A DNA stretch of 64,000 bases from the NCBI GenBank assembly GCA_963204795.1, contig CAUJHX010000182.1:56903-120902 (forward strand), read 5' to 3'. This document shows, one piece after another, positions 27,811 to 53,221 of this stretch. The notes beneath the pieces were generated by a model. That model was given only the letters and a program-made list of their open reading frames with translations. It had not been told where the DNA came from and made no database searches. Position numbers and translations under genes: made by a program. How positions within the stretch are numbered: position 1 is the first letter of the stretch; every line of letters begins with the position of its first letter. Source of the DNA: Pseudomonadota bacterium (GTDB lineage Bacteria; Pseudomonadota; Gammaproteobacteria; Steroidobacterales; Steroidobacteraceae).

Positions 27811-28602
27811 ATGTCCGACGATGAAGTGGAGCGCGACAGCGCGCCGGTGGGCGACGTTGTCGTCGAAGCCGAGGCCGAAGGCGACGAGGACTGGAGCCCG
27901 TTCGACGAGATCCAGGAGGACTTCAAGCCGGGGCCGGTGGTCAAGGTCACCGCGGCTGATGGCCTGCCGACATATGCGCCGCCGCTGCACGACGAGAGCG
28001 ACATCCCCGTGCTGTCGCCGGACACGCTGACTTGCATGGGCGACTTCTCGAAGTTCGTCTTGCGCGGGATCTTCGGCGACGTTGTTGCCGAGTTCGATCC
28101 GGCAGACGTCGAGCGCTCGCCGAGCGGCCGATGGCGAGCATCAAAGCGAGCGGTCATGGAAAAGATGAGCTTGGAGCTGCAGCGCGTGCGTCAGTACGGC
28201 GAAGCGCACGAGCTGCCCGTGCACCCCGACGACGAGCAGCTGCTCACTCAGCTTCTCGGAGGCGTCAACCCGGGCATGGCGGTCAATCATGCGTGGATCG
28301 AAGTGTTCCCGGTGCGCCCGCCGTGCAGGCACTACGCGCGACAGCTGACCCAATTCGAGCTGAACGCTCAGGCGAAGGTGATGCTGCGAGTGTGCGCGGC
28401 GCGGCGGACCACCGAGGGGGCATTCATGTCGCTCCGCGACCGAGCCATGTGGGCGTGCGAGCTTCGGGAGCCCCACGCGGAATCCAGCGCTCTGCTGGAC
28501 GACTTCGATACAGCGAAAATGCAGGAGGGTGCGCGCCGCGAGCACGTGCCCATCTTTTCTCAGGAACCAGGAATCTTTGGAGGCGAACATGGCGGAAAAT
28601 GA
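27811..28602 (+). CDS. hypothetical protein (263 aa), acidic N-terminus
   Basis: Starts MSDDEVERDSAPVGDVVVEAEAEGDEDW. No motif recognised. Confidence 0.6.
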   Translation: MSDDEVERDSAPVGDVVVEAEAEGDEDWSPFDEIQEDFKPGPVVKVTAADGLPTYAPPLHDESDIPVLSPDTLTCMGDFSKFVLRGIFGDVVAEFDPADVERSPSGRWRASKRAVMEKMSLELQRVRQYGEAHELPVHPDDEQLLTQLLGGVNPGMAVNHAWIEVFPVRPPCRHYARQLTQFELNAQAKVMLRVCAARRTTEGAFMSLRDRAMWACELREPHAESSALLDDFDTAKMQEGARREHVPIFSQEPGIFGGEHGGK

Positions 28603-29074
28603 GAGCAGCGAGATCGTCGAGACCGAGGGCGAGGAACAGCTGGAGGAAGAGGACGAGGAGGAAGAAGACGAGTTTCGGGTGCTCTTCGCGGAGGCCGAAG
28701 GCGAATCGAAGAGACTCAAGTCTCTCGCGATGAAGGCCGAGCAGGCCGGCGACGCTTCCGCGGCGGCGGTCTTGCGCGAGGTCGCCGGCGGCGTCGTGCA
28801 GCTGATCCAGGATCTCATCGCGACGACCGGTGGAACGATTCAGGACTTGCAGGCCGATGAAGAGGGCTCGCGGTTGGACGACGAGGACGCGGAGAAGCTC
28901 CACGGTCTCTTGGTCGCCTGTCGCAAGCTCGCACGAGAGGTCATGGCGGCCGGCGCCGTGGGCGACAGCAAGCAAGGGCTCGAAACCCTGGTCAAGCTCA
29001 TCGAGGACCAGATGGAGTTCGTGCTGGAGATCAGCGAGTACGAACCGAAGTCAGAGCAACCCGGAGCGAACTGA
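28589..29074 (+). CDS. very acidic helical protein (161 aa; scaffold-like or DNA-mimic-like)
   Basis: ATG 28589 with a GGAGG RBS. Starts MAENESSEIVETEGEEQLEEEDEEEEDEF. Confidence 0.6.
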   Translation: MAENESSEIVETEGEEQLEEEDEEEEDEFRVLFAEAEGESKRLKSLAMKAEQAGDASAAAVLREVAGGVVQLIQDLIATTGGTIQDLQADEEGSRLDDEDAEKLHGLLVACRKLAREVMAAGAVGDSKQGLETLVKLIEDQMEFVLEISEYEPKSEQPGAN

Positions 29075-29077
29075 TCC

Positions 29078-31516
29078 GTGGAACCAGACACCACTCAGGT
29101 CTTGGAGCAAGAGGCGGCCCTTCTCGGGCTGGGCGCGTCGGAATACGTCCAGATGACGCCGCGCGAGCGGACCTTCTACAAGATCCAGAGGACGAAGCGC
29201 TTGAAGGCCGAGGCGAAGCGACTCGGGGTGAACGCGGAGCGGTGGATGGAGCTGTCCGAAGAAGAGCGTGACGTAGAACGGAAGGAGGCGAGGCTTGCCG
29301 ACATCGCAAAGCGGCATGCCCCTCCTCCCGAGCCGGAGACTCCGCCAGAGCCGGCCGAGCCAGAAGTGGAGCCCGGTGACCGCGTGTACGCAGCTGACCC
29401 GGAAGTTCCTCCGGGCGAAGCAGATCCGTACCTGCGGTCCGGCGTGACCGTCGGGCGCATCACCGAAATCGATCCGCCGCCAGACATTCTCGGGACGGAG
29501 CGTGAGCGCCATCCGCGCACGTTGATGGATCTCTACAGCCGTTGGCCTGTTGGCGACGGCGAGCACTATGTCCGGGTCGAGCGCACGCAGCCGAAGCAGT
29601 GGCAACAGATCCCGTGCGCGGGCTACCTGGGCGATCTGCGCGAACCCATTTCAGAGAAGAAGTTTCAGCAGTGCTTCGGCGGGCGCGAGTACGAGCTGAC
29701 TTTGTATGGTCCCGATCCCAAGGGACGCACCGACCACACCACCGGGCTCACCCGGATCAAGGCGCTCACCAATCCCATCAAGCTCATCGTGCCGCTGCTC
29801 CCGCCCAACCTGGCGGTACTGCCGGCCATGCTCACGAACGAAGAAGCCAAGCAGGAGTCGCAAATGACGCAGCCGTGGAATCCATTCGCCCCCGCAGCCA
29901 TGCCCGCCGGGCCGCCGACGACCTCCGCCGACGCTCAGGTGCACAAGTCCAACGTCGACTTGGTGACGAACGTCCTCAAGATGACGCAGGAGGAGAACCG
30001 TGAGCTGCGCAAGGCTCGCGAGTCGGAAGGTAACGGCTCAAGCAAGCACATGCTCGACTGGCAGAAGGAGGTGCTGGAGGGCGTGCGCAAGGACGCCGAG
30101 TCGCGCGAGCGCATCCTGCGCGAAGAGCTTGCCGAGTCGCGGCGCATCGCGGAGAAGAAAGAGGAAGAGATCGAAAAGATCCGCCTGCAGATCCAGCAAG
30201 CGACAGGTCGCACCGACGGCACGGCCCTGGAGCTGGTGAAGACGCTGGGGACGAACGGCGCCGAGCGCGAAGCGCAGCGCGCCGAGTTCTACCGGCAGCA
30301 GCTGGAACAGGTGCGCGCCGCCCATCAGGATCTGATTCGCACGATGGAGGAACGTCAGAAGAGCGAGATCAACCGCGCCGACTCGCGGCTCAAGGAAGCC
30401 GACGACTACTACAAGAAGCTGCTCGACGAAGAGCGCCGCAAGGGCGAAGAGCGTGAGAAGCACCTGAAGGAAGAGCTGGAGCGGATCCGGCGTGACGAGC
30501 GCGACGCCGCCGAGGCTCGCGTGCGCGAAACGAAGGAGCGCTACGAAGAGCGTCTTCGCGATCAGGAGAAGTCCTTCGAGCGCGAGATCCGGACCGTCAA
30601 GGAGAACTGGGACACCAAGCTCAGCACGACGGTGTCGACGAAAGACTTCGAGCTGGCAGCTCTGCGCGAGCGGCTGGAAGAGGCCAAGGAAGAGGCGCAC
30701 GAGGCGCGCGCGAAGGCCGAAGAGAGCAATGACCCCATCACGGTCATGGAGAAGGCCAAGAAAAACGCCGAGGCCCTCGGCTACCAGAAGAGCGAGGACG
30801 CTCCGAAGACGCCGTGGGAGCGCTTCGCTGCGACGGCCGGCGCCGGGCTCGGCCAGGCGCTCCAAAACATCGACCAGTGGCTGCCCCAGGCAGCCGCGGC
30901 GCTCAGCGGCGGGCGCAACGCTCCCCAGCAGGCCCATATGCAGGGACTGGCCGCCGCGCCGACGCCGCCCCAACTCGCTGCCGCCGCTGCCGCCGCCAGG
31001 GCGACGCAGGCGCGCCGGCCGCGCGCAGTCGCTTGGGCTTCCGCTGGCCAGCCGCCCATCCCGGCGGAGGCGCCGGCGCAGCCGATGGGCTTCCAGCCGG
31101 AGCAACCGCAGCAGCCAGAGGCGGCAGCTGCACCCCCGGCGCAGCCGGTTCAACCCCACCAGCCCCAGCCGCAGGCAGGACCGCCTCCGGGACAGGTCCA
31201 GGTCGAGAACAAGCTCGGTCAGGTCTTCGGCGACGAGGCCGTGATGACCTTCCTGGGGCAGATGGAGATGGCGATCAACATGGGCATGGAGCCCGCCGAC
31301 TTCGCCCAGCGCTTCATCGCGGGCTATCGCGACGCCGCGATCCGCATGATTCAGCTGTACAAACCGGCCGACGTCACGAGCTTCGTGAAGACCTTGCCAG
31401 GGGCAGACATGAGCGCCATCTTGCGGCGCGATGGCGCGAAATTCGTCACGGGGCTCTGGTCGGCCATCGAAAAGCAAACCCAAGGCCCAGCGCAAGCCGC
31501 GCAGCCGTCCGCGTAA
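29078..31516 (+). CDS. large coiled-coil assembly/structural protein (812 aa), function unknown
   Basis: GTG start. Domain order: a globular N-terminal region (HYVRVERTQPKQWQQIPCAGYLGDL...GGREYELTLYGPDPKG), then a coiled coil of roughly 250 aa, then a Q/P/A-rich linker, then a C-terminal globular domain. Confidence 0.65.
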   Translation: MEPDTTQVLEQEAALLGLGASEYVQMTPRERTFYKIQRTKRLKAEAKRLGVNAERWMELSEEERDVERKEARLADIAKRHAPPPEPETPPEPAEPEVEPGDRVYAADPEVPPGEADPYLRSGVTVGRITEIDPPPDILGTERERHPRTLMDLYSRWPVGDGEHYVRVERTQPKQWQQIPCAGYLGDLREPISEKKFQQCFGGREYELTLYGPDPKGRTDHTTGLTRIKALTNPIKLIVPLLPPNLAVLPAMLTNEEAKQESQMTQPWNPFAPAAMPAGPPTTSADAQVHKSNVDLVTNVLKMTQEENRELRKARESEGNGSSKHMLDWQKEVLEGVRKDAESRERILREELAESRRIAEKKEEEIEKIRLQIQQATGRTDGTALELVKTLGTNGAEREAQRAEFYRQQLEQVRAAHQDLIRTMEERQKSEINRADSRLKEADDYYKKLLDEERRKGEEREKHLKEELERIRRDERDAAEARVRETKERYEERLRDQEKSFEREIRTVKENWDTKLSTTVSTKDFELAALRERLEEAKEEAHEARAKAEESNDPITVMEKAKKNAEALGYQKSEDAPKTPWERFAATAGAGLGQALQNIDQWLPQAAAALSGGRNAPQQAHMQGLAAAPTPPQLAAAAAAARATQARRPRAVAWASAGQPPIPAEAPAQPMGFQPEQPQQPEAAAAPPAQPVQPHQPQPQAGPPPGQVQVENKLGQVFGDEAVMTFLGQMEMAINMGMEPADFAQRFIAGYRDAAIRMIQLYKPADVTSFVKTLPGADMSAILRRDGAKFVTGLWSAIEKQTQGPAQAAQPSA

Positions 31517-31766: not shown

Positions 31767-31776
31767 GCATATGCGC

Positions 31777-31822: not shown

Positions 31823-32398
31823 GTGTCTGACGCTCATGCGACGGACACGTGTATGCAGTTCCCCGGTCTCACCCCCCAGCCGCCCGCGACTTTGTCGGGA
31901 TTCAACGGCGCCCCGGACACCGTCCGGGCGATGGTCCGGCAGGCGCAGGGGCTCCGCGGGGAGAAGTCCATGCTGGTCCGCTCCGTGGTCGAGCGGATCA
32001 CGGCCGGGCTCCAGCCGAAGGACTACCTCGGCGAGATGATCGCTGTGCGCAACTGGGTCGCGGAGAACGTGCGCTACCTGAACGACCCGCTGCACGTCGA
32101 GCTGGTGAAGGACCCGCAGCGCCTGATTGAAGAGGTCATGGCGTGGGGTAAGGCGTCGGCCGATTGCGACGAGATCGCGTGCCTCATCGGCACCATGTGC
32201 TTGCAGCTCGGGCGCGTCGTCGAGTTCGTGATCGTCGGCTTCGGCGAGCGCGGCAGCTACTCGCACGTGTTCTGCCGCGTGCTGGAGCCCAAGTCCAACA
32301 AGTGGGTGGTTCTCGACACGGTAGCGGGAACAGGTGAGCGCGGCATGCTCCAGCGCGTGACCACCTACAAGACCTGGAGCCTGGACGAGGCAGCATGA
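31823..32398 (+). CDS. transglutaminase-like (papain-fold) cysteine protease-domain protein
   Basis: 191 aa. SADCDEIACLIGTMCLQLG (Cys), SYSHVFCRV (His) and WVVLDTV (Asp) occur in the order and spacing typical of the transglutaminase-like core. Confidence 0.6.
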   Translation: MSDAHATDTCMQFPGLTPQPPATLSGFNGAPDTVRAMVRQAQGLRGEKSMLVRSVVERITAGLQPKDYLGEMIAVRNWVAENVRYLNDPLHVELVKDPQRLIEEVMAWGKASADCDEIACLIGTMCLQLGRVVEFVIVGFGERGSYSHVFCRVLEPKSNKWVVLDTVAGTGERGMLQRVTTYKTWSLDEAA

Positions 32399-32736
32399 CC
32401 TATCACAGTGGAATGGGCGCACTGCCAACCTGCGTGAGCCAAGCGGAGCATGACGCGGCTGTCATCGCCTGCAAGAAGACCCAAGTCAGAGGCATTGGCG
32501 CAGTCGCAGGGATCGATCCGTGCCAGCTCAAGCTGCTTCCGATCTGCACGTACGTGCGCTCGAACATCAGCACGACCTACGCGCCGCCCCCGCCGCCGGT
32601 GGACATCAGCACGCCTCCTGGTCCGCAGCCGGAAGACGCCGGCGACGAACCCAACTACGCGCTCTGGGGCGGACTCGGCTTGCTGCTGGTGGCCGCAGGC
32701 GGCTACGTCGTCTACAAGGCCACCAAGAAGAAATGA
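32395..32736 (+). CDS. tail-anchored membrane protein (113 aa), paralog of 46168-46842
   Basis: Starts MTYHSGMGA. Pro-rich linker. EPNYALWGGLGLLLVAAGGYVVYKATKKK at the C-terminus. ATGA overlap. Confidence 0.7.
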   Translation: MTYHSGMGALPTCVSQAEHDAAVIACKKTQVRGIGAVAGIDPCQLKLLPICTYVRSNISTTYAPPPPPVDISTPPGPQPEDAGDEPNYALWGGLGLLLVAAGGYVVYKATKKK

Positions 32737-32743
32737 GAACCGG

Positions 32744-33418
32744 ATGAACCGCTACCGCAACATTCGTCCGCGCTATCCCGTCTACTCGCAGACGCGTTTC
32801 GACGGAGACCTTCCACCGCCGGGCTCGTTCGGCCCACCGGACATGCGCCCGAGCGGTTCCAACCCTGCGTACTCGGTGTATGCAGGCGCCTACGGCCGCC
32901 ACCTGGCAGGACTGAACGGAGTGCAGATGAACAGCGCAGACGAAGGCATCAAGGACTACCCGAACGAGCTGGACGCGCTGCAGGTCGCGGACGACGTCAA
33001 CGGCAACGGCATGTTCGACCCGGCGGGGAGCCATGGAAACGTGCACCCCGACTACGGCGTGTTCGCCGATCACGAGTCGCTCCCCGGCTACATCGCCCGC
33101 GACAAGTTCTACACTCCCTCGGAGGTCACTGACGCGACGACGGGTCAGCAGATCATGTACGTGCCTGCCGGAGCCGTCTCCATCGACCACGCGCAGATGC
33201 AGGCGTTCAACAACCGGCTGCTCTGGGATCTGCCGCCTGGCGTGAACCCCTACGCGACCACCGACGTGCCCGACATGTCGATGGTGACGCCGTGGGAAGC
33301 GGCGACCCCCATCGGTCAGACCCCGCCGGAGCCGGCATCGCCCACGAAGATGTTCCTGGTTGCCGGCATCGCTGGCTTGAGCATCGGGCTCTTCGCGGCC
33401 CTGATGATGAAGAAGTGA
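32744..33418 (+). CDS. tail-anchored membrane protein (224 aa)
   Basis: Starts MNRYRNIRPRYPVYSQ. C-terminus MFLVAGIAGLSIGLFAALMMKK. Confidence 0.65.
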   Translation: MNRYRNIRPRYPVYSQTRFDGDLPPPGSFGPPDMRPSGSNPAYSVYAGAYGRHLAGLNGVQMNSADEGIKDYPNELDALQVADDVNGNGMFDPAGSHGNVHPDYGVFADHESLPGYIARDKFYTPSEVTDATTGQQIMYVPAGAVSIDHAQMQAFNNRLLWDLPPGVNPYATTDVPDMSMVTPWEAATPIGQTPPEPASPTKMFLVAGIAGLSIGLFAALMMKK

Positions 33419-33424
33419 GGAAGC

Positions 33425-33829
33425 ATGTACGTCCCGATGCAAAACACCGTCGCCGACTACTACCCCGCGCACTACACGCTGCCGGCTGCGCGCGAGCGAG
33501 TCGAGTCGTTGGGCGCGCTGGATCTGACTGCCCCGGGCCTCGCAGCGATCAAGTTCGCGAAGATGCGAGCGAACGCCGTCGGCGCATACGACGACGAGAC
33601 CCAGGTCTTCGCAGACACCAACGTGCCCACATGGATGATGGGCGCGACGGGGCTGCTGATCCTCGGCGCGGTCGCCGTCGTGGCCGGCGCGCTGAACTAC
33701 CAGATGGGCAAGGCGATGGCGCCGAGCGCCGACAAGAGGAAGACGTGGGGCTGGATCGGAGTGCCGCTCGGCTTCGTGCCGCTCGGGCTGCCGATCATGG
33801 CCATCGTGTCCAACTCGAAGAAGGGGTGA
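33425..33829 (+). CDS. membrane protein (134 aa, 2-3 TM)
   Basis: Starts MYVPMQNTVADYYPAHY. TMs WMMGATGLLILGAVAVVAGAL and WGWIGVPLGFVPLGLPIMAIV. Confidence 0.65.
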   Translation: MYVPMQNTVADYYPAHYTLPAARERVESLGALDLTAPGLAAIKFAKMRANAVGAYDDETQVFADTNVPTWMMGATGLLILGAVAVVAGALNYQMGKAMAPSADKRKTWGWIGVPLGFVPLGLPIMAIVSNSKKG

Positions 33830-33833
33830 GACG

Positions 33834-34247
33834 ATGCCCAGCATCTACGATCCCTCGACGTACCCGCAAGGCGTGCCTAATCCGCTCGGACCGAGGGTGC
33901 ATGCCTGGACGGGCGGTCCGTTCAATGAAGGGCAGCGTTTTCACGGCCCGGTCTACACAAGGCCCCAGGCAACCTTGCCGTGGCAAGAGCGTCCGCTGTG
34001 GGGCGTCGGAAGTGAGCCCATTGTGGGCTCCGCTTCTCGCCAGTGGTGGGATGATCCTGCGTACCAGGCGATCCGCGTCGTCGGCTACGTCGGCAGCCTG
34101 GCTGGCACGGCCGCTGGTGCCTATCACGGGTACAAGCGCAACGGAGGTTCCGTGGGCTGGGGGATCGGGTGGGCGCTCTTGGGTGGAATGTTCTGGCCCA
34201 TCGCGCTGCCGATCATGTTCGTGCAAGGATTCGGAGAGAGAAAATGA
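33834..34247 (+). CDS. membrane protein (137 aa)
   Basis: Starts MPSIYDPSTYPQG. C-terminal GWGIGWALLGGMFWPIALPIMFVQGF. Confidence 0.65.
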   Translation: MPSIYDPSTYPQGVPNPLGPRVHAWTGGPFNEGQRFHGPVYTRPQATLPWQERPLWGVGSEPIVGSASRQWWDDPAYQAIRVVGYVGSLAGTAAGAYHGYKRNGGSVGWGIGWALLGGMFWPIALPIMFVQGFGERK

Positions 34248-34777: not shown

Positions 34778-34788
34778 AAGGCTGAACG

Positions 34789-35520: not shown

Positions 35521-35534
35521 TCACGGAGTGCAGG

Positions 35535-37538: not shown

Positions 37539-37541
37539 ACC

Positions 37542-38622: not shown

Positions 38623-38626
38623 CGAC

Positions 38627-39996: not shown

Positions 39997-40075
39997 CCAC
40001 CCGTTAGCGACAACGTGGGTCGTGGCGTCTGACCGCCTCCACTGTTCTGCCGCGTAGGCAGAGGTGTATGTGGGC

Positions 40076-43356: not shown

Positions 43357-43373
43357 ACACGAAGGCGCAAAAG

Positions 43374-43406
43374 GCTGCCCTTGGCCCCGTGCTGGGGGCA
43401 GCTTTT
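43374..43406 (+). terminator. intrinsic terminator after the capsid-candidate gene
   Basis: GCTGCCC (43374-43380) pairs with GGGCAGC (43396-43402) and is followed by TTTT (43403-43406). An A-run lies upstream. Confidence 0.6.
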
Positions 43407-46842: not shown

Positions 46843-47063
46843 ACCTCATCGCCGTTCAGGGACTTGGATCGCTCGGGCAGACGCCCGTCGTGGGCGAAGC
46901 TGCGACCTGTATGGCGAACGAGCAGTACAAGGCCCTGGTCGGCGCCAAGGATGACGCGATCCGCATGTGGAACGACGCCAAGGCGCAACGGTGGACGTTC
47001 CTGATCGGGGGGCTTGCCGTGGGCGCCGCGGTTGGGTTCGTGCTCTGGAGGAAGCGATGGTGA
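46839..47063 (+). CDS. tail-anchored membrane protein (74 aa)
   Basis: GTG 46839 (GTGA overlap). C-terminus WTFLIGGLAVGAAVGFVLWRKRW. Confidence 0.55.
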   Translation: MNLIAVQGLGSLGQTPVVGEAATCMANEQYKALVGAKDDAIRMWNDAKAQRWTFLIGGLAVGAAVGFVLWRKRW

Positions 47064-47284
47064 GACAGGGACAGATGGACCAGGCCTTTGCCGCCGCCAA
47101 CGCTGCGCAGTCCGTGGTGACTGACCTCGGGGGCCCGCTCGGGATGGTTGGGCGGCTCACCGGCCTGGGCGCCGACGAGCTGGACGCCGGGATCCCTGGC
47201 TGGGCGTGGCTCGGGATCGGTGTCGTGGTGGGCGGCGGCCTCGCATACACGCTGCGCGACAGGATTCAGAAGGTCATCGGCTGA
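47057..47284 (+). CDS. small membrane protein (75 aa)
   Basis: ATG 47057. Contains GIPGWAWLGIGVVVGGGLAYTL. Confidence 0.55.
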   Translation: MVRQGQMDQAFAAANAAQSVVTDLGGPLGMVGRLTGLGADELDAGIPGWAWLGIGVVVGGGLAYTLRDRIQKVIG

Positions 47285-47308: not shown

Positions 47309-47695
47309 ATGGGCAACATCGGACCACTCAGCAGCTTCCAGACCGCGAGCACTTTGCGATCTGGGCACGTGCAGTCATCGCTTGCTTCCGATCTGCAGAC
47401 TCGGTTGCAGGCCCTGATCGACTCCGAAGCGGCGGCCGGTCGCGGGGTCGTCGACCTGAACCTCGCCGGTTCCGGAGAAGGCCACTCGTTCGTGGCGCAT
47501 CTGGTGACCGGCTCCAACGCGGTGCCCGCTGGCGATCAGGTTGCGTGCTACAGCGCCGCGTCCTTGCCCGAGCTGACCGTGGCCAGCAACGCCACGCTGG
47601 CGAGCATCTCGCCGCTTCGCCGGATGCGCGGGCTACTCGAAGACGGTTCGGCCGATGGCCACCGCTGGATGGGGATCATCCTTCACGCGCCCTGA
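47309..47695 (+). CDS. MGN-family protein, paralog 1 (128 aa)
   Basis: Starts MGNIGPLSS. Contains QSSLASDLQ, GSGEGHSF and DGHRWMGII. Confidence 0.7.
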   Translation: MGNIGPLSSFQTASTLRSGHVQSSLASDLQTRLQALIDSEAAAGRGVVDLNLAGSGEGHSFVAHLVTGSNAVPAGDQVACYSAASLPELTVASNATLASISPLRRMRGLLEDGSADGHRWMGIILHAP

Positions 47696-47706
47696 GAGGA
47701 GTCATC

Positions 47707-48084
47707 ATGGGAAACGCATTGTCACTGACAGGATCTCCTGCCCCCATCACGGGGCTTCAGATCCTTCGCACTCAGTCGTCGCTCGCTTCGGACATCCAAG
47801 CGTGGCTCAGCGCGCTGATCGGCGAAGGGGTAGCGTTCTTCGACTTCGATCTGAGCGGCGCTGGGGACGGCCACTCCTTCGTGGCCACCGCGGTCATCGG
47901 GAGCGGAACTTCGCGCACGGGGGCACGGGTCGTGTCCGCAAGCGACGAGCTGTCGCTTCAGGCAGCGCGAGACGCTGTGCTCGCTGAGCTTACCCTGCTC
48001 AACGCGTACTTCTATGTCGCCGAGGCTGGAACGAACGATGGCTCGCGCTGGATGTGCGCGATCCTGTACACGGAGCAAGACTGA
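47707..48084 (+). CDS. MGN-family protein, paralog 2 (125 aa)
   Basis: ATG 47707 with a GAGAGGAG RBS. Starts MGNALSLTG. Contains QSSLASDIQ, GAGDGHSF and DGSRWMCAI. Confidence 0.7.
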   Translation: MGNALSLTGSPAPITGLQILRTQSSLASDIQAWLSALIGEGVAFFDFDLSGAGDGHSFVATAVIGSGTSRTGARVVSASDELSLQAARDAVLAELTLLNAYFYVAEAGTNDGSRWMCAILYTEQD

Positions 48085-48509
48085 TGGGCAACGCCAACGA
48101 AATCCCCCTCGCAGGAGTGAGCTTCGCACCGAACACGCGTTCCTTCTCCATCCAGTCGTCTCTGGCGTCCGACATGCAGGCGCGCGCACAGGCGATCCTG
48201 ACGGCGGAGATCGCAGCCGGACGAAATCTGGTCGACGCAGCGCTGTCAGGCGCTGGCGACGGCCACTCGTTCATGCTGACCTTGTTCACGAGTTCGACGC
48301 GCACCGTCTACCCGAACGTGGACGGGGTTCTCTGCTACGTCGCCCCGAACGGCGATGCTCTCAGCGCCGTCGCACAGGCAGCTCTGGATTCGCTCACCGA
48401 CGGTGGCGGCAACAGCCGCTCAGTGGTCGGCCTGGCCGAGGCCGGGTCGTGTGATGGTCACCGCTGGATGGGAGTCATCTTCCATTCAGCAGTCTACACC
48501 CCGCCATGA
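48084..48509 (+). CDS. MGN-family protein, paralog 3 (141 aa)
   Basis: TGATG overlap. Starts MGNANEIPL. Contains QSSLASDMQ, GAGDGHSF and DGHRWMGVI. Confidence 0.7.
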   Translation: MGNANEIPLAGVSFAPNTRSFSIQSSLASDMQARAQAILTAEIAAGRNLVDAALSGAGDGHSFMLTLFTSSTRTVYPNVDGVLCYVAPNGDALSAVAQAALDSLTDGGGNSRSVVGLAEAGSCDGHRWMGVIFHSAVYTPP

Positions 48510-48724
48510 CGGACCTCGGAAGGCTCTACACCATCAAGACGAACGTCCCTCTCCTGCAGACGTTCGAGGCGGACATCCCTGTCGACCAGATGACGGCTGA
48601 CGCCATCGAGGCGGTGAAAGCGGACGCCAAGAAGGTGTTGCCGTGGGTGGTCGCCGGGGGCGCGGTGGTCGTGAGCTTGAGCGTGATCGCTGCGGCGGCG
48701 CTGTTCGTGCGAAAGAAGTGGTGA
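48506..48724 (+). CDS. tail-anchored membrane protein (72 aa)
   Basis: ATGA overlap. C-terminus LPWVVAGGAVVVSLSVIAAAALFVRKKW. Confidence 0.6.
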   Translation: MTDLGRLYTIKTNVPLLQTFEADIPVDQMTADAIEAVKADAKKVLPWVVAGGAVVVSLSVIAAAALFVRKKW

Positions 48725-48771
48725 CGCTCGCGGTGGCGGGATAGTCTTTGACGGAAAGGTTGATCGAAAAG

Positions 48772-49752
48772 ATGGCGTACTACAGCGGTTCTGGGGCGAC
48801 GATTCGGTCGGGCGCGGCTGGCCTTGGCGAGTACTTCGACGCGGCCCAGGGCGCCCGTCCTCCGGCGCCGGTTCAGGCGTTTCAGGACGGCGTCTTCAGC
48901 GGCGGCGGCGCGGACGTGTGGATGAGCGACGTCGGTGACGATCCGGGGCCGCTCCGCTCGTACCACGACGGCTCGCTCGGCGCTTGCCACGGGTGCGGCA
49001 TGGGAGCCTACGACCAGGCAGCTGCCGGGCTCGGCATGCCGCTGTGGATCGATGGCAAGCCGGTGGACCGGCCCGTCTCCATCATGCACGGGCCGGCGGT
49101 CGATCCGACGTCAGCCTTCCGTGATGGCAGCTTGGGCGAGTACTTCGGCGGAGGCGGAGTGCCGTGGGCGGGCTCGTTCCGCGATGGCAGTCTGGGCACC
49201 GTCGCTGCGCCGCCGAAGACGGTGGACCTGACCGATCCCCAGGCGCTCAAGGAGACGAAGATGGCCATTGCCATGATCGTCGCCGACATCGCCATGGGCA
49301 GCGGCTCCGCTCCGAACGTCGGGGCCAAGTACTACGACGAGGCCTTCTACGCCGACCCGATCTGGAGCGCGAAGGCGTCGGAGCTGTGGGATGCCGCGGC
49401 GAAGAAGCTCGCTGGCGTGACGAAGTCTCAGGTCGACGAGCTGTCGCAGTCCTCGAAGGGCAACACCTTCCCGACCGCGAACGGCTTGGCCGCGGTGCTC
49501 GCATACGGCGTCGGCGCGCCTGTCGGCGACCCGAAGTCCTTCGCGACGAACTTCCCCGTGCTGAGCGCCTGGTACGGCCAGGTGGCGGCGGCGAAGGGCA
49601 ACCTGACTGGGTTCAAGGTCTCCGCGCCGTTCTTCACCGTGCAGGAGAAGGTCTCGGGCAAGAGCATGTTCGCCGGCATGAGCAAGACGAGCCTCGTTCT
49701 CGGCGTCGGCGCCGTCGCGGCTCTCACCTTCTTCTTGATCCGGAAGAAGTGA
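48772..49752 (+). CDS. tail-anchored membrane protein with GLGEYF repeats (326 aa)
   Basis: I prefer ATG 48772 (MAYYSGSG); the track start is TTG 48748. Contains AGLGEYF, AAGLGMPL, GSLGEYF and GSLGTVA. C-terminus SLVLGVGAVAALTFFLIRKK. Confidence 0.65.
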   Translation: MAYYSGSGATIRSGAAGLGEYFDAAQGARPPAPVQAFQDGVFSGGGADVWMSDVGDDPGPLRSYHDGSLGACHGCGMGAYDQAAAGLGMPLWIDGKPVDRPVSIMHGPAVDPTSAFRDGSLGEYFGGGGVPWAGSFRDGSLGTVAAPPKTVDLTDPQALKETKMAIAMIVADIAMGSGSAPNVGAKYYDEAFYADPIWSAKASELWDAAAKKLAGVTKSQVDELSQSSKGNTFPTANGLAAVLAYGVGAPVGDPKSFATNFPVLSAWYGQVAAAKGNLTGFKVSAPFFTVQEKVSGKSMFAGMSKTSLVLGVGAVAALTFFLIRKK

Positions 49753-49764
49753 GATGAAGGCAGC

Positions 49765-50331
49765 ATGGGGCTGTTCGATGACCTTCTGGAAGACACCGGC
49801 GCTGCGCCCCCTTGGGGCCGCATCGCGGCGACCTTCCTGAGCGGTCTGCAGACCGCCCAAGCCGGCGGCGGCAAGGTCGTCGATCAGCTCTTGCAGTGGG
49901 GCTCATTGCTCGCCCGGAACGCTCCGGCGCGTTGGGGCGAGCAGGCGCTCAAGCCTGTCTTCTGCGCGGCGCACAAGTGCCAGGCACAGGCGCTTGTGCC
50001 TTGCGCGGCCTGCGGCAAGGCGTACTGCCTCGCGCATGTGCTGGTGAGCTACCACGCCGAGGGGATTTGCGAGCCTTGCGCGCTGGAGTTCGTGACCATG
50101 AAGCGCAAGCGGGCGACCAACGAGGATTCGGTGGCGGAGGCCTACAAGACCTTGCGCCTGCCCAAGACGTCCGATTGGGACGACGTGCGGGCCGCCTATC
50201 GCGCGCTGGCGGCCAAGCACCATCCCGACAAGCAGAAGACCGAGGCCGCTCGGGCCAAGGCCGAGAAGCGCATGAAGGAGATCAACGCCGCCTACGCGGT
50301 ACTGAAGCTCCACTTGCAGGAGGCAGCCTGA
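49765..50331 (+). CDS. J-domain (DnaJ-like) protein with central Cys-rich region
   Basis: 188 aa. C-terminal AYKTLRLPKTSDWDDVRAAYRALAAKHHPDKQ...MKEINAAYAVL (HPD motif). Central CAAHKCQAQALVPCAACGKAYCLAH...CEPC. Confidence 0.8.
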   Translation: MGLFDDLLEDTGAAPPWGRIAATFLSGLQTAQAGGGKVVDQLLQWGSLLARNAPARWGEQALKPVFCAAHKCQAQALVPCAACGKAYCLAHVLVSYHAEGICEPCALEFVTMKRKRATNEDSVAEAYKTLRLPKTSDWDDVRAAYRALAAKHHPDKQKTEAARAKAEKRMKEINAAYAVLKLHLQEAA

Positions 50332-50780
50332 TGTATCGCACCGCTCCAGCCGTTGCTCTTGGCGCCGTGAGGCCCACTTGGTGCCCCGGCACGTCCCTGG
50401 CCGCGGGCCAGCGTGACCCGTGCGAGGTCGAATACGCGTTCGATCTGCCGCTTGTCGGCAAGACGTCGTTCGGGCTGCCCATCCCGGCGATGACCAACGA
50501 CGCGATCAACACCGTGCAGGCGCGGTTGCCGCAGCTCTTGGATCAGACCCTGCCAGTCATCTACCAGAAGCTGCAGCCCTACATCGACGACATGACGGAC
50601 TTCGTGATTCCGTCCGTCGTGTCCGACCTGATGAAGAAGCAGGTCACGCCCATGGTGGACAACCAGAAGGAAGAGATCGTCGCGCAGGCGAACTTGCTGA
50701 TCCAGAAGACACTGCTCGGCGTGGCCATGATCACGGCTGCGGGCCTGGGCGCGTACTGGTATATTCGGCGGAGGGCATGA
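50331..50780 (+). CDS. tail-anchored membrane protein (149 aa)
   Basis: TGATG overlap. Starts MYRTAPAVALG. C-terminus LLGVAMITAAGLGAYWYIRRRA. Confidence 0.6.
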   Translation: MYRTAPAVALGAVRPTWCPGTSLAAGQRDPCEVEYAFDLPLVGKTSFGLPIPAMTNDAINTVQARLPQLLDQTLPVIYQKLQPYIDDMTDFVIPSVVSDLMKKQVTPMVDNQKEEIVAQANLLIQKTLLGVAMITAAGLGAYWYIRRRA

Positions 50781-51226
50781 TGGCTAGAATCTCATTTGAC
50801 ACGACCAACGGAAGCGTCGGCATCGCTAGCGATTTGTCTGCGGGGGCCAAACGGAAACTCGCGAGGTTTCTGTCAGACATGGACCCGGAAGTGCGCAGGT
50901 CGTTCACTCACGACACCGAGGTTCTGATGGATCGCATTGCTGCAGCCGTAGCGAAAAGCGAAAAGACCCTCTTGGCCCTGGACGACGCACTCGCGAATTA
51001 CTGGTTTGACACGGAATCAAAAGCAGAAGCTAACGAGCTACTCCAGGTCGTCGAGGTTGAGCGGGTGAGGGTTTTGGAGGAGGCGTTGCGGCCGTTTGCG
51101 GAGATTCGTGCGGCTGGCGCGACGGGCGGAGAGTGGATCCGCATCGACCACGCCGAACCGTACATGCGATTGACGAATTGGTGCGACGCCGCCCGCGCGG
51201 CGCTGGAAGGGATTGAGGTGGAGTGA
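50777..51226 (+). CDS. hypothetical protein (149 aa) in a low-GC patch
   Basis: ATGA overlap. Starts MMARISFDTTNGSVGIASD. GC is about 54% in the first 100 nt by hand count. Codon usage is atypical. Confidence 0.55.
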   Translation: MMARISFDTTNGSVGIASDLSAGAKRKLARFLSDMDPEVRRSFTHDTEVLMDRIAAAVAKSEKTLLALDDALANYWFDTESKAEANELLQVVEVERVRVLEEALRPFAEIRAAGATGGEWIRIDHAEPYMRLTNWCDAARAALEGIEVE

Positions 51227-51513
51227 TGCACGGTGCATGGAACGACGCATGGCTCGACCGCGTCGCGTCACTCACTGAACGGGTGCTCACGCGAACTGAG
51301 GAAGTTGACGACCTCCGCTCCCGCCTGTCGCTGTTCCGCGACTACGTGTGCGAGGGGTGCGGGTGCGCGACGAGCTACGACGTGAGCCGGGAGTACTGCC
51401 TCGACTGCTGGGAGGTCCGGCACGGCGTCACGAGCGGCGATTACCACGCCGCCGCATGCGTTTCGGTCGGCCTCCGCGCACTCTGCGGAAGACGGATTCT
51501 GGAGGGATGCTGA
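51223..51513 (+). CDS. small Cys-rich protein (96 aa)
   Basis: Contains CEGCGC...CLDC. GTGA/TGATG overlap. Confidence 0.5.
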   Translation: MMHGAWNDAWLDRVASLTERVLTRTEEVDDLRSRLSLFRDYVCEGCGCATSYDVSREYCLDCWEVRHGVTSGDYHAAACVSVGLRALCGRRILEGC

Positions 51514-51514
51514 G

Positions 51515-52600
51515 ATGAAGTACACCGTTACCGTGGGCGGCGAGAGCCACCGTTGCCAGTTGTTCGTGGGCTTCGTCGGCAAGCCCGAGGATGACGCCAC
51601 CCCCGCCGACCTAATCGCGGCGCTGAAAGCGAACGCCGCTGCGTGTGGCGAGGTCACGGCCGCGATGGGCTGGGTGACCGACCAGGCGCTAGCCGTGACC
51701 GGAGAACGCGCCGAGCAAGCGGAGCGCTCGCTAGCCACCGTGACGGCAGAGCGGGATGCGGCGAAGTACTGGCTGGCCGCACACAAGGCGGCGTCGGAAG
51801 CGCTTGTGGATCCGGTCACGGGTCATGGGTTCTTCATGCTCATCGGCAAGGGCGACGATGGTGCGGACGGGTGGTTCTACACGTTCGGCGGTCCGCTCGA
51901 CAGCTACACCCTGTGCGAACGCAGCGACGACCAAGACCCGCATTTCGTGTACTTCCAACGCGAGCGGTACGACCACGACCAGGGATGCTGGATCGACGGG
52001 TGCGAAGTCGTGGAGCCGGTTCTTGCTCCAGACGAATGCAGCGTGGCGCCGTATTGCCTAGAGGCTGTCACCGAAGAGCGCGACGCGCTGAAGCGCGAGC
52101 GGGATGAGGCGAGGGCAGAACGTGACGCGGCTGTGGCTCGCGCCACGCAAGCCGAGCGCGACCGCGACGCCTGGCGCGAGAAGTGGGAGGCGCTGGAGAC
52201 TACGCGAGCGGTGTGCTGCGCCCAGATAGAGCGGGAGCGGGATGAGGCGAGGGCGACCAACCGCGACAACCTGGCGATGTGGGAGGTCGAACGCGACGCC
52301 CTGAAGGCCAAGCTCGCGGAGGCGGAGAGGGAGAATCTGACCCTGCGCAATCGCATCGGCATCGACCGCACGTCCTGGCACGAGGCCGAAGCGGAGGTGA
52401 AAGTCCTCCGCGCCCAGCTCGCCAAGACCGCGCGTGAGCGGGATGACGCGATGACACTGGCTGAAGAACGCCGGGACTATGCCCGCGCGCAAAACGCTAA
52501 GCTGTCGGTGGAGTGCGACGACCTCCGCGCCCAGCTTACCGCGGTCGAGCGGGAGCGGGATGAGGCGCACGCCGCACTGCGGAAGAGAAGCAGGAGATGA
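51515..52600 (+). CDS. coiled-coil protein with ERD-type repeats (361 aa)
   Basis: GGAGGG RBS. Repeated (V/I)xxERDxA motifs: TAERDAAKYW, TEERDALKRERDEARAERDAAV, IERERDEARA, VERDALKAKL, ARERDDAM, VERERDEAHA. Confidence 0.65.
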   Translation: MKYTVTVGGESHRCQLFVGFVGKPEDDATPADLIAALKANAAACGEVTAAMGWVTDQALAVTGERAEQAERSLATVTAERDAAKYWLAAHKAASEALVDPVTGHGFFMLIGKGDDGADGWFYTFGGPLDSYTLCERSDDQDPHFVYFQRERYDHDQGCWIDGCEVVEPVLAPDECSVAPYCLEAVTEERDALKRERDEARAERDAAVARATQAERDRDAWREKWEALETTRAVCCAQIERERDEARATNRDNLAMWEVERDALKAKLAEAERENLTLRNRIGIDRTSWHEAEAEVKVLRAQLAKTARERDDAMTLAEERRDYARAQNAKLSVECDDLRAQLTAVERERDEAHAALRKRSRR

Positions 52601-52601
52601 C

Positions 52602-52964
52602 ATGAGCTACTACCAGATGCCCAACAACGGACTCTCGGCCGGCTACTACCAGCAGCTGCCGGTGGCCACTCCGCTCTGGCAGGAAGCGCCGGTGCCAGGC
52701 TGGGGCGTGAACCCGCTTCGCGCCGGCCCGCGGCGCGTCGGCGTCGGCGCATATGCGACGCCGGTTCCAGGTTGCGGGTCCTGCGGGTCCTACAGCGACG
52801 ACGTGCCCTTGAACAGCGCCGTGCTGCCGCGCTACGCGCCCATCGGTGCGGCGGGCTCAGAGGAGACGACCTACGGCGTGGTCGCCATGGCCGCCGCTGG
52901 CGGCATCGTGCTCGGGCTGGCCTTCGGGTGGCTCTGGTTCGCGAACAAGCCCATGAAGGCATGA
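52602..52964 (+). CDS. tail-anchored membrane protein (120 aa)
   Basis: ATG 52602 with an AGGAG RBS. Starts MSYYQMPNNG. C-terminus YGVVAMAAAGGIVLGLAFGWLWFANKPMKA. Confidence 0.65.
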   Translation: MSYYQMPNNGLSAGYYQQLPVATPLWQEAPVPGWGVNPLRAGPRRVGVGAYATPVPGCGSCGSYSDDVPLNSAVLPRYAPIGAAGSEETTYGVVAMAAAGGIVLGLAFGWLWFANKPMKA

Positions 52965-53221
52965 TGTACCGTTCCCTCGGCTCCACCTCCGTTCCTGCGC
53001 AGGCCACCTGTCCGCAGTGCTCGTACCTCTGGGAGGGCAGCTGCAAGGTCTGTGTGGACGGCGACCCGCATCCGGGCTGCGAGAGCTGCGTCGGCGGAAG
53101 GCTGCCGACGCCTCCATGGTACAAGAGCCACCTCGTGCTCCAGATCGGCAGCCTCGTGGTGGCGTCGCTGGCGGTCGCCCTGCTCGTGCCTCGCATCGAG
53201 GGAGCGCTCAGGAAGCGCTAG
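52961..53221 (+). CDS. tail-anchored Cys-rich membrane protein (86 aa)
   Basis: ATGA overlap. Starts MMYRSLGS. Contains CPQCSYLWEGSCKVCVDGDPHPGCESC. C-terminus HLVLQIGSLVVASLAVALLV. Confidence 0.6.
   Translation: MMYRSLGSTSVPAQATCPQCSYLWEGSCKVCVDGDPHPGCESCVGGRLPTPPWYKSHLVLQIGSLVVASLAVALLVPRIEGALRKR

What the first reader, a model, noticed from the sequence alone, without database searches (positions are those of the whole stretch)
27811..53221. 25-kb virion/assembly-like module with about 20 tail-anchored membrane proteins and no recognisable terminase, portal or tail genes
Between the moron region and the glycosyltransferase cassette lie about 45 co-oriented, mostly coupled genes. I could not recognise a terminase (the only Walker A motifs in the window are in Tmk, the DnaC-like loader and DnaB), a portal, a tape measure, or tail tube, sheath or fibre genes.

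Instead the block contains:
- about 20 small proteins ending in one hydrophobic helix plus a K/R tail;
- polytopic membrane proteins;
- a 770-aa polybasic protein with TM helices;
- an acidic scaffold-like protein;
- an 812-aa coiled-coil protein;
- three consecutive beta-rich proteins (260, 321 and 287 aa), the first with the strongest RBS and a terminator.

This gene content resembles internal-membrane, tailless dsDNA viruses rather than tailed phages. However, the element is far larger than the bacterial members I know of, which are roughly 10-20 kb. If confirmed, it would be an undescribed virus type. A divergent tailed phage with its tail module outside the window remains possible.
Basis: partly seen in the sequence, partly recalled or inferred. 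Interest (0 to 1): 0.85.

Follow-up and report, generated by a model that had tools for sequence, protein, structure and literature searches.

The report
Large tailless membrane-virus structural module
This 25-kb block looks like the particle-building module of an undescribed, widespread group of large (about 95-180 kb) bacterial viruses that appear to use a jelly-roll capsid protein, many small membrane proteins and a DNA-coating basic protein instead of the head, portal, terminase and tail of ordinary phages.

Summary
Positions 27811-53221 carry 39 co-oriented genes. Of these, 14 (strict) to about 19 (relaxed) end in one hydrophobic helix plus a K/R tail, against 1 of 56 genes elsewhere in the window. 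Pfam and PHROGs gave no confident match for any of the 15 module proteins scanned, and no terminase, portal, HK97 capsid or tail family.

g64 (42541-43323) is the best-conserved gene, with the best RBS and its own terminator. It models confidently (pLDDT 83) as a single jelly-roll. Its nearest folds are viral capsid proteins, all weak to moderate matches: a 211-aa viral protein that is probably SSIP-1 gp46, and SPV1.

g48 matches only one of 50,697 phage records: the virion protein gp34 of SSIP-1, a tailless membrane-containing phage.

I rebuilt a 95.6-kb relative almost completely. No terminase, portal, HK97 capsid, tail or FtsK/HerA packaging ATPase appeared in what I could see (only part of the bulk hit list is displayed).

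Best reading: the virion module of a new lineage of large, tailless, membrane-containing bacterial viruses distantly allied to SSIP-1. The polybasic membrane protein g63 probably condenses the DNA. Virion shape, lipid content and host are inferred, not shown.

The parts
27811..29074 (+). g44 (263 aa, acidic N-terminus) and g45 (161 aa, 27% D+E). Possible scaffold, or chaperone for the basic core protein (inferred).
   Evidence: Gene call, composition. Pfam, PHROGs and PDB sequence search found nothing for g44.
29078..31516 (+). g46, 812 aa, with a long charged coiled-coil-like centre and a Q/P-rich region. Candidate scaffold or capsid-size ruler (inferred).
   Evidence: Sequence. No Pfam, PHROGs or PDB match.
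31853..32398 (+). g48, transglutaminase-like cysteine-protease-fold protein. Homologue of the SSIP-1 virion protein gp34.
   Evidence: Weak Pfam Transglut_core hit. phmmer against SSIP-1 gp34 gives E 1.7e-12. tblastn against 50,697 phage records hits only SSIP-1 gp34, E 6e-9. Homologues occur in the 95.6-kb relative (41% identity) and in the distant relative L041.
32395..36726 (+). g49-g57: nine small proteins, seven of them tail-anchored. g51 has two predicted helices and g52 one weak internal helix near its C-terminus. g54-g56 carry peptidoglycan-binding-like motifs and proline-rich stalks.
   Evidence: Hydropathy scan. Weak PG_binding_1/3 hits. g54-g56 are conserved in 7-11 related loci.
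36726..39802 (+). g58 (two-helix membrane protein), g59 (tail-anchored, conserved), g60 (181 aa, soluble, conserved), g61 (68 aa, heptad-like by eye), g62 (391 aa, tail-anchored).
   Evidence: g59 and g60 are conserved in 16 and 18 of 25 related loci.
40070..42388 (+). g63, 772 aa. Residues 1-480 are polybasic (36% K+R), followed by two hydrophobic helices and a C-terminal part with three G-x-G-E-Y-F/Y repeats. Proposed DNA-condensing core protein anchored in the virion membrane (inferred).
   Evidence: Conserved in 23 of 25 related loci, always just upstream of g64.
42541..43323 (+). g64, 260 aa, single jelly-roll. Candidate major capsid protein.
   Evidence: Most conserved gene of the module (median 60% identity, 25 of 25 loci). 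AF2 pLDDT 82.9, pTM 0.82. Foldseek BFVD top hit E 5.6e-5; PDB top hits are SPV1 capsid chains, E 0.02-0.07. Wider family of more than 2000 proteins.
43370..43406 (+). Intrinsic-terminator-like hairpin plus U-run after g64.
   Evidence: RNA fold of 43315-43465: -72.5 kcal/mol, z = -4.6. The simple terminator scan missed it.
43458..44423 (+). g65, 321 aa, N-terminal coiled coil plus beta domain. Possible second capsid or vertex protein.
   Evidence: 729 homologues. Found in 25 of 25 loci. The gene next to the g64-like gene in distant relative L040 is a g65 homologue, E 3e-10. The AF2 model is poor (pLDDT 54) and gives only weak jelly-roll capsid hits.
44437..45300 (+). g66, 287 aa, proline-rich N-terminus plus a region that looks beta-rich by eye. 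Fold not determined.
   Evidence: Found in 25 of 25 loci, median 39% identity. No Pfam, PHROGs or PDB match.
45428..47284 (+). g67-g70: four tail-anchored or C-terminally anchored membrane proteins.
   Evidence: g67 and g70 are conserved in 17-18 loci. The Walker-A-like motif in g67 is not conserved.
47309..48509 (+). g71-g73: three tandem paralogues (MGN... N-termini, shared GDGHSF and RWM motifs). Function unknown.
   Evidence: Sequences, DNA repeat D11.
48506..53221 (+). g74, g75, g77, g81 and g82 are tail-anchored proteins. g76 is a DnaJ-domain protein. g78-g80 are soluble or coiled-coil proteins; this sub-block varies between strains.
   Evidence: DnaJ from precomputed Pfam. Strain variation in this sub-block is visible between L001 and L006.

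Best explanation
The block is the virion-morphogenesis module of a large, tailless, membrane-containing dsDNA virus of bacteria. [quoted passage not shown]

Proposed working, all of it inferred:
- g64 is a single jelly-roll protein expressed as its own high-output unit. It forms the capsid lattice, probably together with g65, and g66 may add vertex or minor-capsid functions.
- Under the shell lies a lipid vesicle loaded with about 19 tail-anchored viral proteins and three two-helix membrane proteins (g51, g58, g63).
- Some of these proteins carry peptidoglycan-binding-like domains on proline-rich stalks. Another component is the membrane-associated transglutaminase-like protein g48. These would act in entry or exit.
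- The 36% K+R N-terminal half of g63 coats and condenses the genome. Its helices tie the nucleoprotein to the membrane, and its G-x-G-E-Y-F repeats may contact shell or membrane partners.
- Because no packaging ATPase is detectable, the particle may assemble around a pre-condensed nucleoprotein core, as in SPV1, rather than by pumping DNA into a procapsid.
- The acidic g45 and the 812-aa coiled-coil-like g46 would serve as chaperone, scaffold or size ruler.
- Fibre-like proteins encoded left of the window would be the receptor-binding spikes.
For: Shown by tool results:
- The architecture and the enrichment of tail-anchored proteins: 14-19 of 39 inside the module against 1 of 56 outside.
- The g63-g64-g65-g66 block is conserved in all 25 related loci. 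IMG/VR holds 22 relatives on contigs up to 182 kb.
- g64 models as a jelly-roll sandwich, pLDDT 82.9. Its best structural neighbours are capsid proteins of SPV1, circoviruses, satellite viruses, HCIV-1 and SH1, plus a 211-aa viral protein at E 5.6e-5, probability 1.0.
- SSIP-1 gp46 is a 211-aa structural protein and a paralogue of gp45. SSIP-1 is reported to have two capsid protein types of the vertical single beta-barrel kind, an internal membrane and a T=49 capsid (PMC6356626, PMC4958249, PMC6260650).
- g48 matches only SSIP-1 gp34 among 50,697 phage records. gp34 is annotated as a structural protein and has a C-terminal anchor. In relative L041 the g48 homologue is fused to a g59-like domain; g59 is tail-anchored in the window.
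- The g64-g65 pair and the g48 homologue persist in much more distant relatives.
- Nothing seen for terminase, portal, HK97 capsid or tail genes in the window, the flanks, or the displayed hits of the 94.4 kb recovered from a 95.6-kb relative.
- Shine-Dalgarno motifs precede 50 of 95 genes, against 13 expected by chance. The element also carries DnaB, DnaC-like, RecT and YqaJ genes, which point to a bacterial host.
- SPV1 is a precedent for a jelly-roll shell, inner membrane and nucleoprotein core; its ICTV profile assigns no ATPase function (PMC8459092).
Against: - All structural matches of g64 to solved structures are weak (E >= 0.02). Jelly-roll domains also occur in decoration, fibre and non-viral proteins.
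- The identity of the best BFVD hit (I1ZBH9) as SSIP-1 gp46 rests only on its length and accession era. Profile comparison of the g64 family with gp46 is collinear but not significant (P about 0.006-0.014).
- The g65 model is unreliable and g66 was not modelled.
- No homologue of the predicted SSIP-1 packaging ATPase gp40 and no FtsK/HerA ATPase was found, so a hallmark of known membrane-containing icosahedral viruses is missing.
- About 50 kb of this element's own genome was not examined.
- In the bulk scan of the relative, only the 25 best of 67 PHROG families and 25 of 45 Pfam families were displayed.
- A 542-aa protein next to the window has a domain shared with tail-fibre families.
- Lipid content, capsid symmetry and host are not demonstrated.
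Confidence: 0.6

Rival explanations
1. It is a divergent tailed (Caudoviricetes-type) large phage. Its HK97 capsid protein, portal, terminase and tail genes are too diverged to detect or lie in unseen sequence. On this view g64 is a jelly-roll decoration, cement or receptor-binding protein, and the membrane proteins are lysis, superinfection-exclusion or host-takeover factors.
For: - The 542-aa protein left of the window has an N-terminal domain matching PHROG tail-fibre and minor-tail families at E about 5e-7, and it sits beside a 1211-aa fibre-like repeat protein.
- The PDB hit list for g64 includes phage cement proteins KHP30 and KHP40.
- About 50 kb of the element was not seen.
- Only the top 25 families of the bulk scans were displayed.
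Against: - In the near-complete 95.6-kb relative, nine of the 12 proteins of 400 aa or more were scanned individually (Pfam, PHROGs or both). The other three are homologues of window proteins that I scanned or that carry precomputed Pfam calls. None resembles a terminase or portal.
- The only P-loop proteins there are two SF2 helicases, a classical AAA protein and a ComM-like protein.
- Terminase large subunits are normally easy to detect (established knowledge).
- g64 is the most conserved and apparently the most highly expressed gene, which is unusual for an accessory decoration protein.
- The only link to any isolated phage is to the tailless SSIP-1.
Confidence: 0.13
2. It is a virus, but not an icosahedral internal-membrane one. 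For example it could be an enveloped or pleomorphic particle in which the many tail-anchored proteins sit in an outer envelope, g63 forms a nucleoprotein core, and g64-g66 are matrix, nucleocapsid or spike proteins.
For: - The module is very rich in membrane proteins, and the core protein is polybasic.
- No packaging ATPase was found.
- The position of the membrane relative to the shell cannot be read from sequence.
Against: - The g64 fold most resembles lattice-forming jelly-roll capsid proteins.
- Both nearest allies, SSIP-1 and SPV1, have the membrane inside an icosahedral shell (PMC6356626, PMC8459092).
Confidence: 0.17
3. It is not a virion module at all. It would be a cell-surface or membrane-remodelling gene island of a large plasmid or another non-viral mobile element.
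For: - Most of the genes are orphans.
- The element encodes a tyrosine recombinase, glycosyltransferases and a MoxR/VWA pair.
- In public genome bins the element appears under discordant taxa.
Against: - g64 has a jelly-roll capsid-like fold, and g48 is homologous to a proven virion protein of SSIP-1.
- The element has a phage-type recombination and replication module.
- In the relative it also has an SLT/endolysin-type gene.
- No conjugation or partition genes were seen.
- The contigs are held in IMG/VR.
Confidence: 0.05

Closest known systems
[quoted passage not shown]
   Same: - It is the only phage record with a g48-like gene: gp34, a virion structural protein of the transglutaminase-like fold.
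- It has two small paralogous structural proteins, gp45 and gp46, of about 210 aa. The best structural neighbour of g64 is a 211-aa viral protein that is probably gp46.
- It has several C-terminally anchored small proteins, including structural ones.
- Its gene order is comparable: a very large structural protein immediately precedes the small capsid-type genes.
   Different: - The genome here is 2-4 times larger (95-182 kb contigs).
- There is no homologue of the predicted SSIP-1 packaging ATPase gp40.
- SSIP-1 has no counterpart of the polybasic g63.
- Sequence similarity is confined to one domain, plus a generic methyltransferase domain (g4, outside the module, matching gp43).
- Host and habitat differ: SSIP-1 is halophilic and infects Salisaeta, whereas these are high-GC elements from assorted metagenomes.
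Portogloboviridae (Sulfolobus polyhedral virus 1)
   Same: - It gives the best match for g64 among solved structures: SPV1 capsid chains, 6oj0.
- Its virion plan is a jelly-roll shell, an inner membrane with sub-capsomer proteins and a nucleoprotein core. Its ICTV profile assigns no ATPase function (PMC8459092).
- That is the assembly logic proposed here.
   Different: - It infects archaeal hyperthermophiles and has a 20-kb genome.
- The match is weak (E 0.02-0.07).
- Its core protein VP1 is not a long polybasic membrane protein.
- No sequence similarity was detected.
Sphaerolipoviridae / Matsushitaviridae (SH1, HCIV-1, P23-77; vertical single jelly-roll capsid proteins)
   Same: They are tailless, have an internal membrane, and use small jelly-roll capsid proteins encoded side by side. 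HCIV-1 and SH1 capsid chains appear in the g64 hit list.
   Different: - Those hits are at E about 1.
- These families encode an A32/FtsK-type ATPase next to the capsid genes, which is absent here.
- Their genomes are 16-31 kb.
Tectiviridae / Corticoviridae (PRD1, PM2; double jelly-roll)
   Same: They are tailless membrane-containing bacterial viruses with many small membrane proteins and vertex spikes.
   Different: - The g64 model is one beta-sandwich, not a double jelly-roll.
- No packaging ATPase was found.
- The genome here is about ten times larger.

Membership tests
Caudoviricetes (tailed phages) | HK97-fold major capsid protein | tested here: not met
   - g64 models as a jelly-roll, and none of the top 50 PDB hits listed is an HK97-type capsid protein.
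- No capsid family was hit in Pfam or PHROGs for the module proteins scanned, or in the displayed hits for the 95.6-kb relative.
- Limit: not every protein was modelled.
Caudoviricetes (tailed phages) | Terminase large subunit and portal protein | tested here: not met
   - None seen in the window: about 35 of its 95 proteins were scanned, and most of the rest have precomputed Pfam calls in which nothing was found.
- None in the two 10-kb flanks (precomputed Pfam, plus scans of five left-flank proteins) or in the 94.4 kb of the relative.
- No terminase-type P-loop.
- About 50 kb of this element's own genome was not seen.
Caudoviricetes (tailed phages) | Tail genes (tube, sheath, tape measure, baseplate) | tested here: inconclusive
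   No tube, sheath, tape-measure or baseplate gene was found. However, a 542-aa protein left of the window has a domain shared with tail-fibre families, E 5e-7, and a 1211-aa fibre-like repeat protein lies beside it. Fibres also occur on tailless viruses.
SSIP-1-like viruses | gp34-type transglutaminase-like virion protein | tested here: met
   g48 against gp34: phmmer E 1.7e-12. It is the only tblastn hit among 50,697 phage records, E 6e-9.
SSIP-1-like viruses | Two small paralogous capsid proteins (gp45/gp46 type) | tested here: inconclusive
   - The g64 fold matches a 211-aa viral protein, I1ZBH9, at E 5.6e-5. Its identity as gp46 is not verified.
- hhalign of the g64 family against gp46 gives only P about 0.006-0.014.
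- g64 and g65 are not detectably paralogous.
SSIP-1-like viruses | Predicted packaging ATPase (gp40) | tested here: not met
   No window or flank protein matches gp40. The role of gp40 is taken from PMC4124505.
SSIP-1-like viruses | Internal lipid membrane and T=49 icosahedral particle with spikes | not testable with these tools
   This needs particles. Only the richness in membrane proteins is seen here.
Helvetiavirae-type viruses (Sphaerolipoviridae and allies) | Two vertical single jelly-roll capsid proteins next to an A32/FtsK-HerA ATPase gene | tested here: not met
   - g64 is a single jelly-roll, but its matches to HCIV-1 and SH1 are at E about 1.
- No ATPase gene lies in or near the module.
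Bamfordvirae prokaryotic viruses (PRD1, PM2, STIV) | Double jelly-roll capsid protein plus FtsK-HerA packaging ATPase | tested here: not met
   - The g64 model has one sandwich. The g65 model is too poor to judge.
- No such ATPase was found.
Portogloboviridae | Single jelly-roll capsid proteins VP4/VP10, basic nucleocapsid protein, no packaging ATPase | tested here: inconclusive
   - It is the best PDB neighbour, but the match is weak (E 0.02-0.07, probability 0.69-0.84).
- g63 is an analogue by composition only.
- Archaeal host and 20-kb genome are not met.

The most novel reading that the evidence does not exclude
This is the first glimpse of a family-level or higher lineage of large (95-180 kb) tailless, membrane-containing viruses of bacteria. 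They would build a big capsid from a small single jelly-roll protein related to that of SSIP-1. They would also package DNA without any packaging ATPase, by wrapping it with a membrane-anchored polybasic protein. That virion plan is so far known only from a 20-kb archaeal virus. If correct, it extends the size range of non-tailed prokaryotic viruses several-fold.
Probability: 0.4. Interest if true: 0.9.

Novelty: new variant of a known kind. Interest (0 to 1): 0.8.

Why it matters
Non-tailed, lipid-containing phages are thought to be under-sampled. The isolates discussed in the papers I read have genomes of about 10-44 kb.

The lineage seen here is large. The g64/g65 families have about 700 protein clusters each, the wider g64 superfamily has more than 2000, and contigs reach 182 kb. 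I found no match to a cultured phage other than the SSIP-1 gp34 domain (and a generic methyltransferase domain), and no description of the group in the searchable literature.

If the reading is right, three things follow:
- Jelly-roll, membrane-based virions would scale to genome sizes comparable with large tailed phages in bacteria.
- SSIP-1 would gain a large set of relatives to place it by.
- It would provide a bacterial test case for ATPase-free, nucleoprotein-core assembly.

The reading is directly testable. The same element recurs, with identical proteins, in at least nine public sequencing runs and in one NCBI assembly.

Tried and rejected
- Megablast of the module and tblastn of g64, g65 and a distant g64 relative against 50,697 phage records: no match.
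- Pfam and PHROGs on 15 module proteins: only sub-threshold hits.
- PDB sequence searches with g44, g46, g66 and the g64 and g65 profiles: only coiled-coil noise.
- AF2 model of g65 from 42 close homologues: pLDDT 54, not usable.
- Profile-profile tests for paralogy among g63, g64, g65, g66 and others: none found.
- Pfam scan of distant g64 relatives: nothing except a sub-threshold DUF7592 hit.
- Walker-A-like motif in g67, considered as a hidden ATPase: rejected because it is not conserved.
- Walking outward with single proteins failed. The VWA protein found nothing in IMG/VR. The 542-aa fibre protein led only to an unrelated contig that shares its C-terminal domain.
- A genome-wide repeat that could have fetched many loci in one scan: none exists.
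- What did work: fusing the two end ORFs of a known stretch into one query, which recovered 94.4 kb of a 95.6-kb relative in four scans.
- hhalign of the g64 family against SSIP-1 gp45 and gp46: collinear but not significant.
- Eukaryotic host, raised by the MGN N-termini of g71-g73: rejected because of strong Shine-Dalgarno use, operon-style gene overlaps and bacterial-type replication genes.
Full report
**What is in the window.** The window is 66% G+C. A codon-usage gene call gives 95 genes. Genes g1-g19 lie on the minus strand, apart from a weak 67-aa plus-strand call (g17), and include Tmk and ThyX. Genes g20-g43 lie on the plus strand and include a YqaJ exonuclease, RecT, a DnaC-like loader, an intein-bearing DnaB and a papain-like protease. 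The finding covers g44-g82 (27811-53221): 39 genes, all on the plus strand. After it come glycosyltransferases and a 1554-aa tyrosine-recombinase protein. Shine-Dalgarno cores precede 50 of 95 genes, against 13 +/- 3 at random positions, and 39 of 94 neighbouring genes overlap by 1 or 4 nt. The host therefore uses bacterial-type translation, and the replication genes are bacterial in type.

**Checking the observation.**
- A hydropathy scan finds 20 of 39 module proteins with a hydrophobic helix. Fourteen have a single C-terminal helix and a tail of 15 residues or fewer. Five more qualify by eye. Outside the module the count is 1 of 56.
- g63 is 36% K+R over its first 480 residues, then has two hydrophobic helices. 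g45 is 27% D+E.
- g64 has an AAGGAG ribosome-binding site, sits after a 152-nt spacer, and is followed by a strong hairpin with a U-run.
- Walker A motifs occur only in Tmk, the DnaC-like protein and DnaB. The motif in g67 is not conserved in 17 homologues, and the match in g62 lies in its basic C-terminal tail.
- Pfam and PHROGs give no confident match for any of the 15 module proteins scanned.
- The description is accurate. The gene count of about 45 is slightly high.

**The element is one of many.**
- g65 has 729 and g64 has 691 homologous protein clusters at 55-96% identity. Nearly all come from metagenome assemblies (a few from NCBI records), on contigs up to about 140 kb.
- IMG/VR holds 22 relatives on contigs of 38-182 kb, many of them 125-143 kb.
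- In species-representative genomes the gene appears only on three MAG contigs, binned to Pirellulales, Pseudomonadales and a methanogen. That pattern suggests a free element that gets binned at random.
- Proteins identical to those in the window occur on contigs from at least nine sequencing runs and one NCBI assembly.
- Across 25 related loci, g64, g65 and g66 are always present and g63 is present in 23. g59, g60, g67, g70 and g76 are found in 16-20 loci.

**Fold of the candidate capsid protein.**
- g65, modelled from close homologues only, was poor (pLDDT 54).
- For g64, a whole-library HMMER search found only 113 representatives, but these included short relatives of about 190-230 aa. Searching with those relatives revealed a superfamily of more than 2000 proteins on contigs of 60-110 kb.
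- With that diverse alignment g64 modelled well (pLDDT 82.9, pTM 0.82). The model is a beta-sandwich of about eight main strands plus a helix.
- Against the PDB there is no hit at E <= 0.001. The top of the list is still dominated by single jelly-roll capsid proteins: SPV1 (E 0.02-0.07, probability up to 0.84), circoviruses and satellite viruses, with HCIV-1 and SH1 further down.
- Against predicted viral structures the best hit is I1ZBH9: 211 aa, E 5.6e-5, probability 1.0.
- No HK97-type capsid protein appears among the top hits listed.

**Link to SSIP-1.**
- The GenBank record of Salisaeta icosahedral phage 1 has a 211-aa structural protein, gp46. I infer that this is I1ZBH9, but I could not verify it.
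- gp46 and its neighbour gp45 are paralogues (E 1e-12). This fits published statements that SSIP-1 has two capsid protein types of the vertical single beta-barrel group, an internal membrane and a T=49 capsid (PMC6356626, PMC4958249, PMC6260650).
- Profile comparison of the g64 family with gp46 is collinear over about 175 residues but not significant.
- There is an independent link through g48. It matches the SSIP-1 virion protein gp34 (phmmer E 1.7e-12). In a tblastn search of all 50,697 phage records, SSIP-1 is the only hit (E 6e-9).
- gp34 carries a C-terminal anchor. In distant relative L041 the g48 homologue is fused to a g59-like domain; g59 is tail-anchored in the window.
- In the distant relative L040, the gene after the g64-like gene is a g65 homologue (E 3e-10). 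The g64-g65 pair is therefore ancient.

**Are tailed-phage genes hiding outside the window?**
- Contigs carrying the terminal window genes extend the view by 10 kb on each side.
- To the right lie small genes, a RyR-domain protein, DUF7296 and a VWA/MoxR pair. To the left lie a 1211-aa Gly/Ala/Thr-rich repeat protein and a 542-aa protein, and otherwise orphans.
- The 542-aa protein has a domain of about 75 aa shared with PHROG tail-fibre families (E 5e-7). Its C-terminal part is 52% identical to a gene on an otherwise unrelated contig. I read these two proteins as receptor-binding fibres, which tailless viruses also have.
- I then recovered 94.4 kb of the 95.6-kb IMG/VR relative 3300045116_000451, with no conflicts between overlapping pieces. 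It carries homologues of g20, g22, g31, g48, g50, g58-g60, g63-g66, g76, g83, g85, g88 and g94.
- Scans of 107 of its proteins in bulk and 15 individually found helicases, SSB, RusA, a ComM-like protein, a classical AAA protein, a radical-SAM enzyme, an exonuclease, methyltransferases, an SLT/endolysin-type protein, a GDSL lipase, pentapeptide-repeat proteins, a TnpB-like gene and an STIV_B116-like gene.
- They found no terminase, portal, HK97 capsid, tail or FtsK/HerA ATPase.
- Limits: the bulk scans displayed only the strongest 25 families, and about 50 kb of this element's own lineage remains unseen.

**Interpretation.**
- The evidence fits a virion module of a tailless, membrane-containing virus with a jelly-roll capsid protein, distantly allied to SSIP-1.
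- The lack of any packaging ATPase, together with a conserved polybasic membrane protein immediately upstream of the capsid gene, suggests assembly around a nucleoprotein core. SPV1 is the precedent: a jelly-roll shell, an inner membrane and a nucleoprotein core, with no ATPase among its assigned gene functions (PMC8459092).
- These mechanistic steps are inference, as are the roles proposed for g45, g46, g54-g56 and the fibre proteins.
- The rivals are a very divergent tailed phage, a differently built enveloped virus, and a non-viral island. All are less well supported but not excluded.

**Novelty.** Six full-text searches (three of them aimed at large non-tailed or jelly-roll phages) found no description of such large SSIP-1-like or jelly-roll bacterial viruses. 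The library is incomplete, so prior description cannot be ruled out. I rate this a new variant of a known kind: membrane-containing tailless phages. It differs from known members in genome size, in the core protein and in the missing ATPase.

Noticed in passing
window 16105-18825: DnaB helicase gene interrupted by an intein that carries a LAGLIDADG homing endonuclease.
   Followed up: no
window 58933-63597: A 1554-aa protein in which only residues of about 460-530 match the tyrosine-recombinase catalytic domain. The rest is unknown. It is conserved (1393 aa, opposite strand) in the 95.6-kb relative.
   Followed up: partly
window 47309-48509: Three tandem paralogues (g71-g73), all starting MGN and sharing SSLASD, GDGHSF and RWM motifs. 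No database match; they are poorly conserved among relatives.
   Followed up: no
window 41950-42220, 48796-48842, 38650-38670: A short peptide repeat, G-x-G-E-Y-F/Y, occurs three times in the C-terminal part of g63 and at the N-termini of g75 and g62. In addition, g49, g53, g62 and g68 share M-[TS]-Y-H starts. These may be docking or processing motifs.
   Followed up: partly
window 20943-21011: Three tandem copies of a 23-nt unit (AGAGGCCCGTAAGGGCCCCCCCC), each able to form a small hairpin, just after g28.
   Followed up: no
window 22336-23064: A papain/C39-like cysteine protease (g32) lies outside the module. It is a possible maturation protease, but I did not test this.
   Followed up: no
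L036 14499-20226 (left of the window): A 1211-aa Gly/Ala/Thr-rich repeat protein and a 542-aa protein with a tail-fibre-type N-terminal domain. The C-terminal ~190 aa of the latter are 52% identical to a gene on an unrelated viral contig (L043), which suggests exchange of a receptor-binding domain.
   Followed up: partly
L033 17940-24665 (right of the window): A RyR-domain protein, DUF7296 and a VWA plus MoxR-type AAA+ pair, all on the opposite strand beyond the recombinase.
   Followed up: no
L048 7170-9080; L049 12783-19758: The 95.6-kb relative carries a TnpB/Cas12f-like gene and a run of four proteins of about 500 aa: ComM-like, a classical AAA protein and two orphans. Elsewhere in the same contig the bulk scans also report three pentapeptide-repeat proteins and an STIV_B116-like protein, whose positions I did not determine.
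   Followed up: partly
L042 (SSIP-1) 34635-35959: SSIP-1 gp45 and gp46 are paralogues (26% identity, E 1e-12). Both share with the g64 family an N-terminal pattern by eye...LF...N...LP...hydrophobic strand.
   Followed up: partly
window 2121-2804: g4, a small N6-adenine-methyltransferase-like protein, matches the methyltransferase domain inside the 2319-aa SSIP-1 structural protein gp43 (E 5.8e-12). This is probably a generic domain match.
   Followed up: partly
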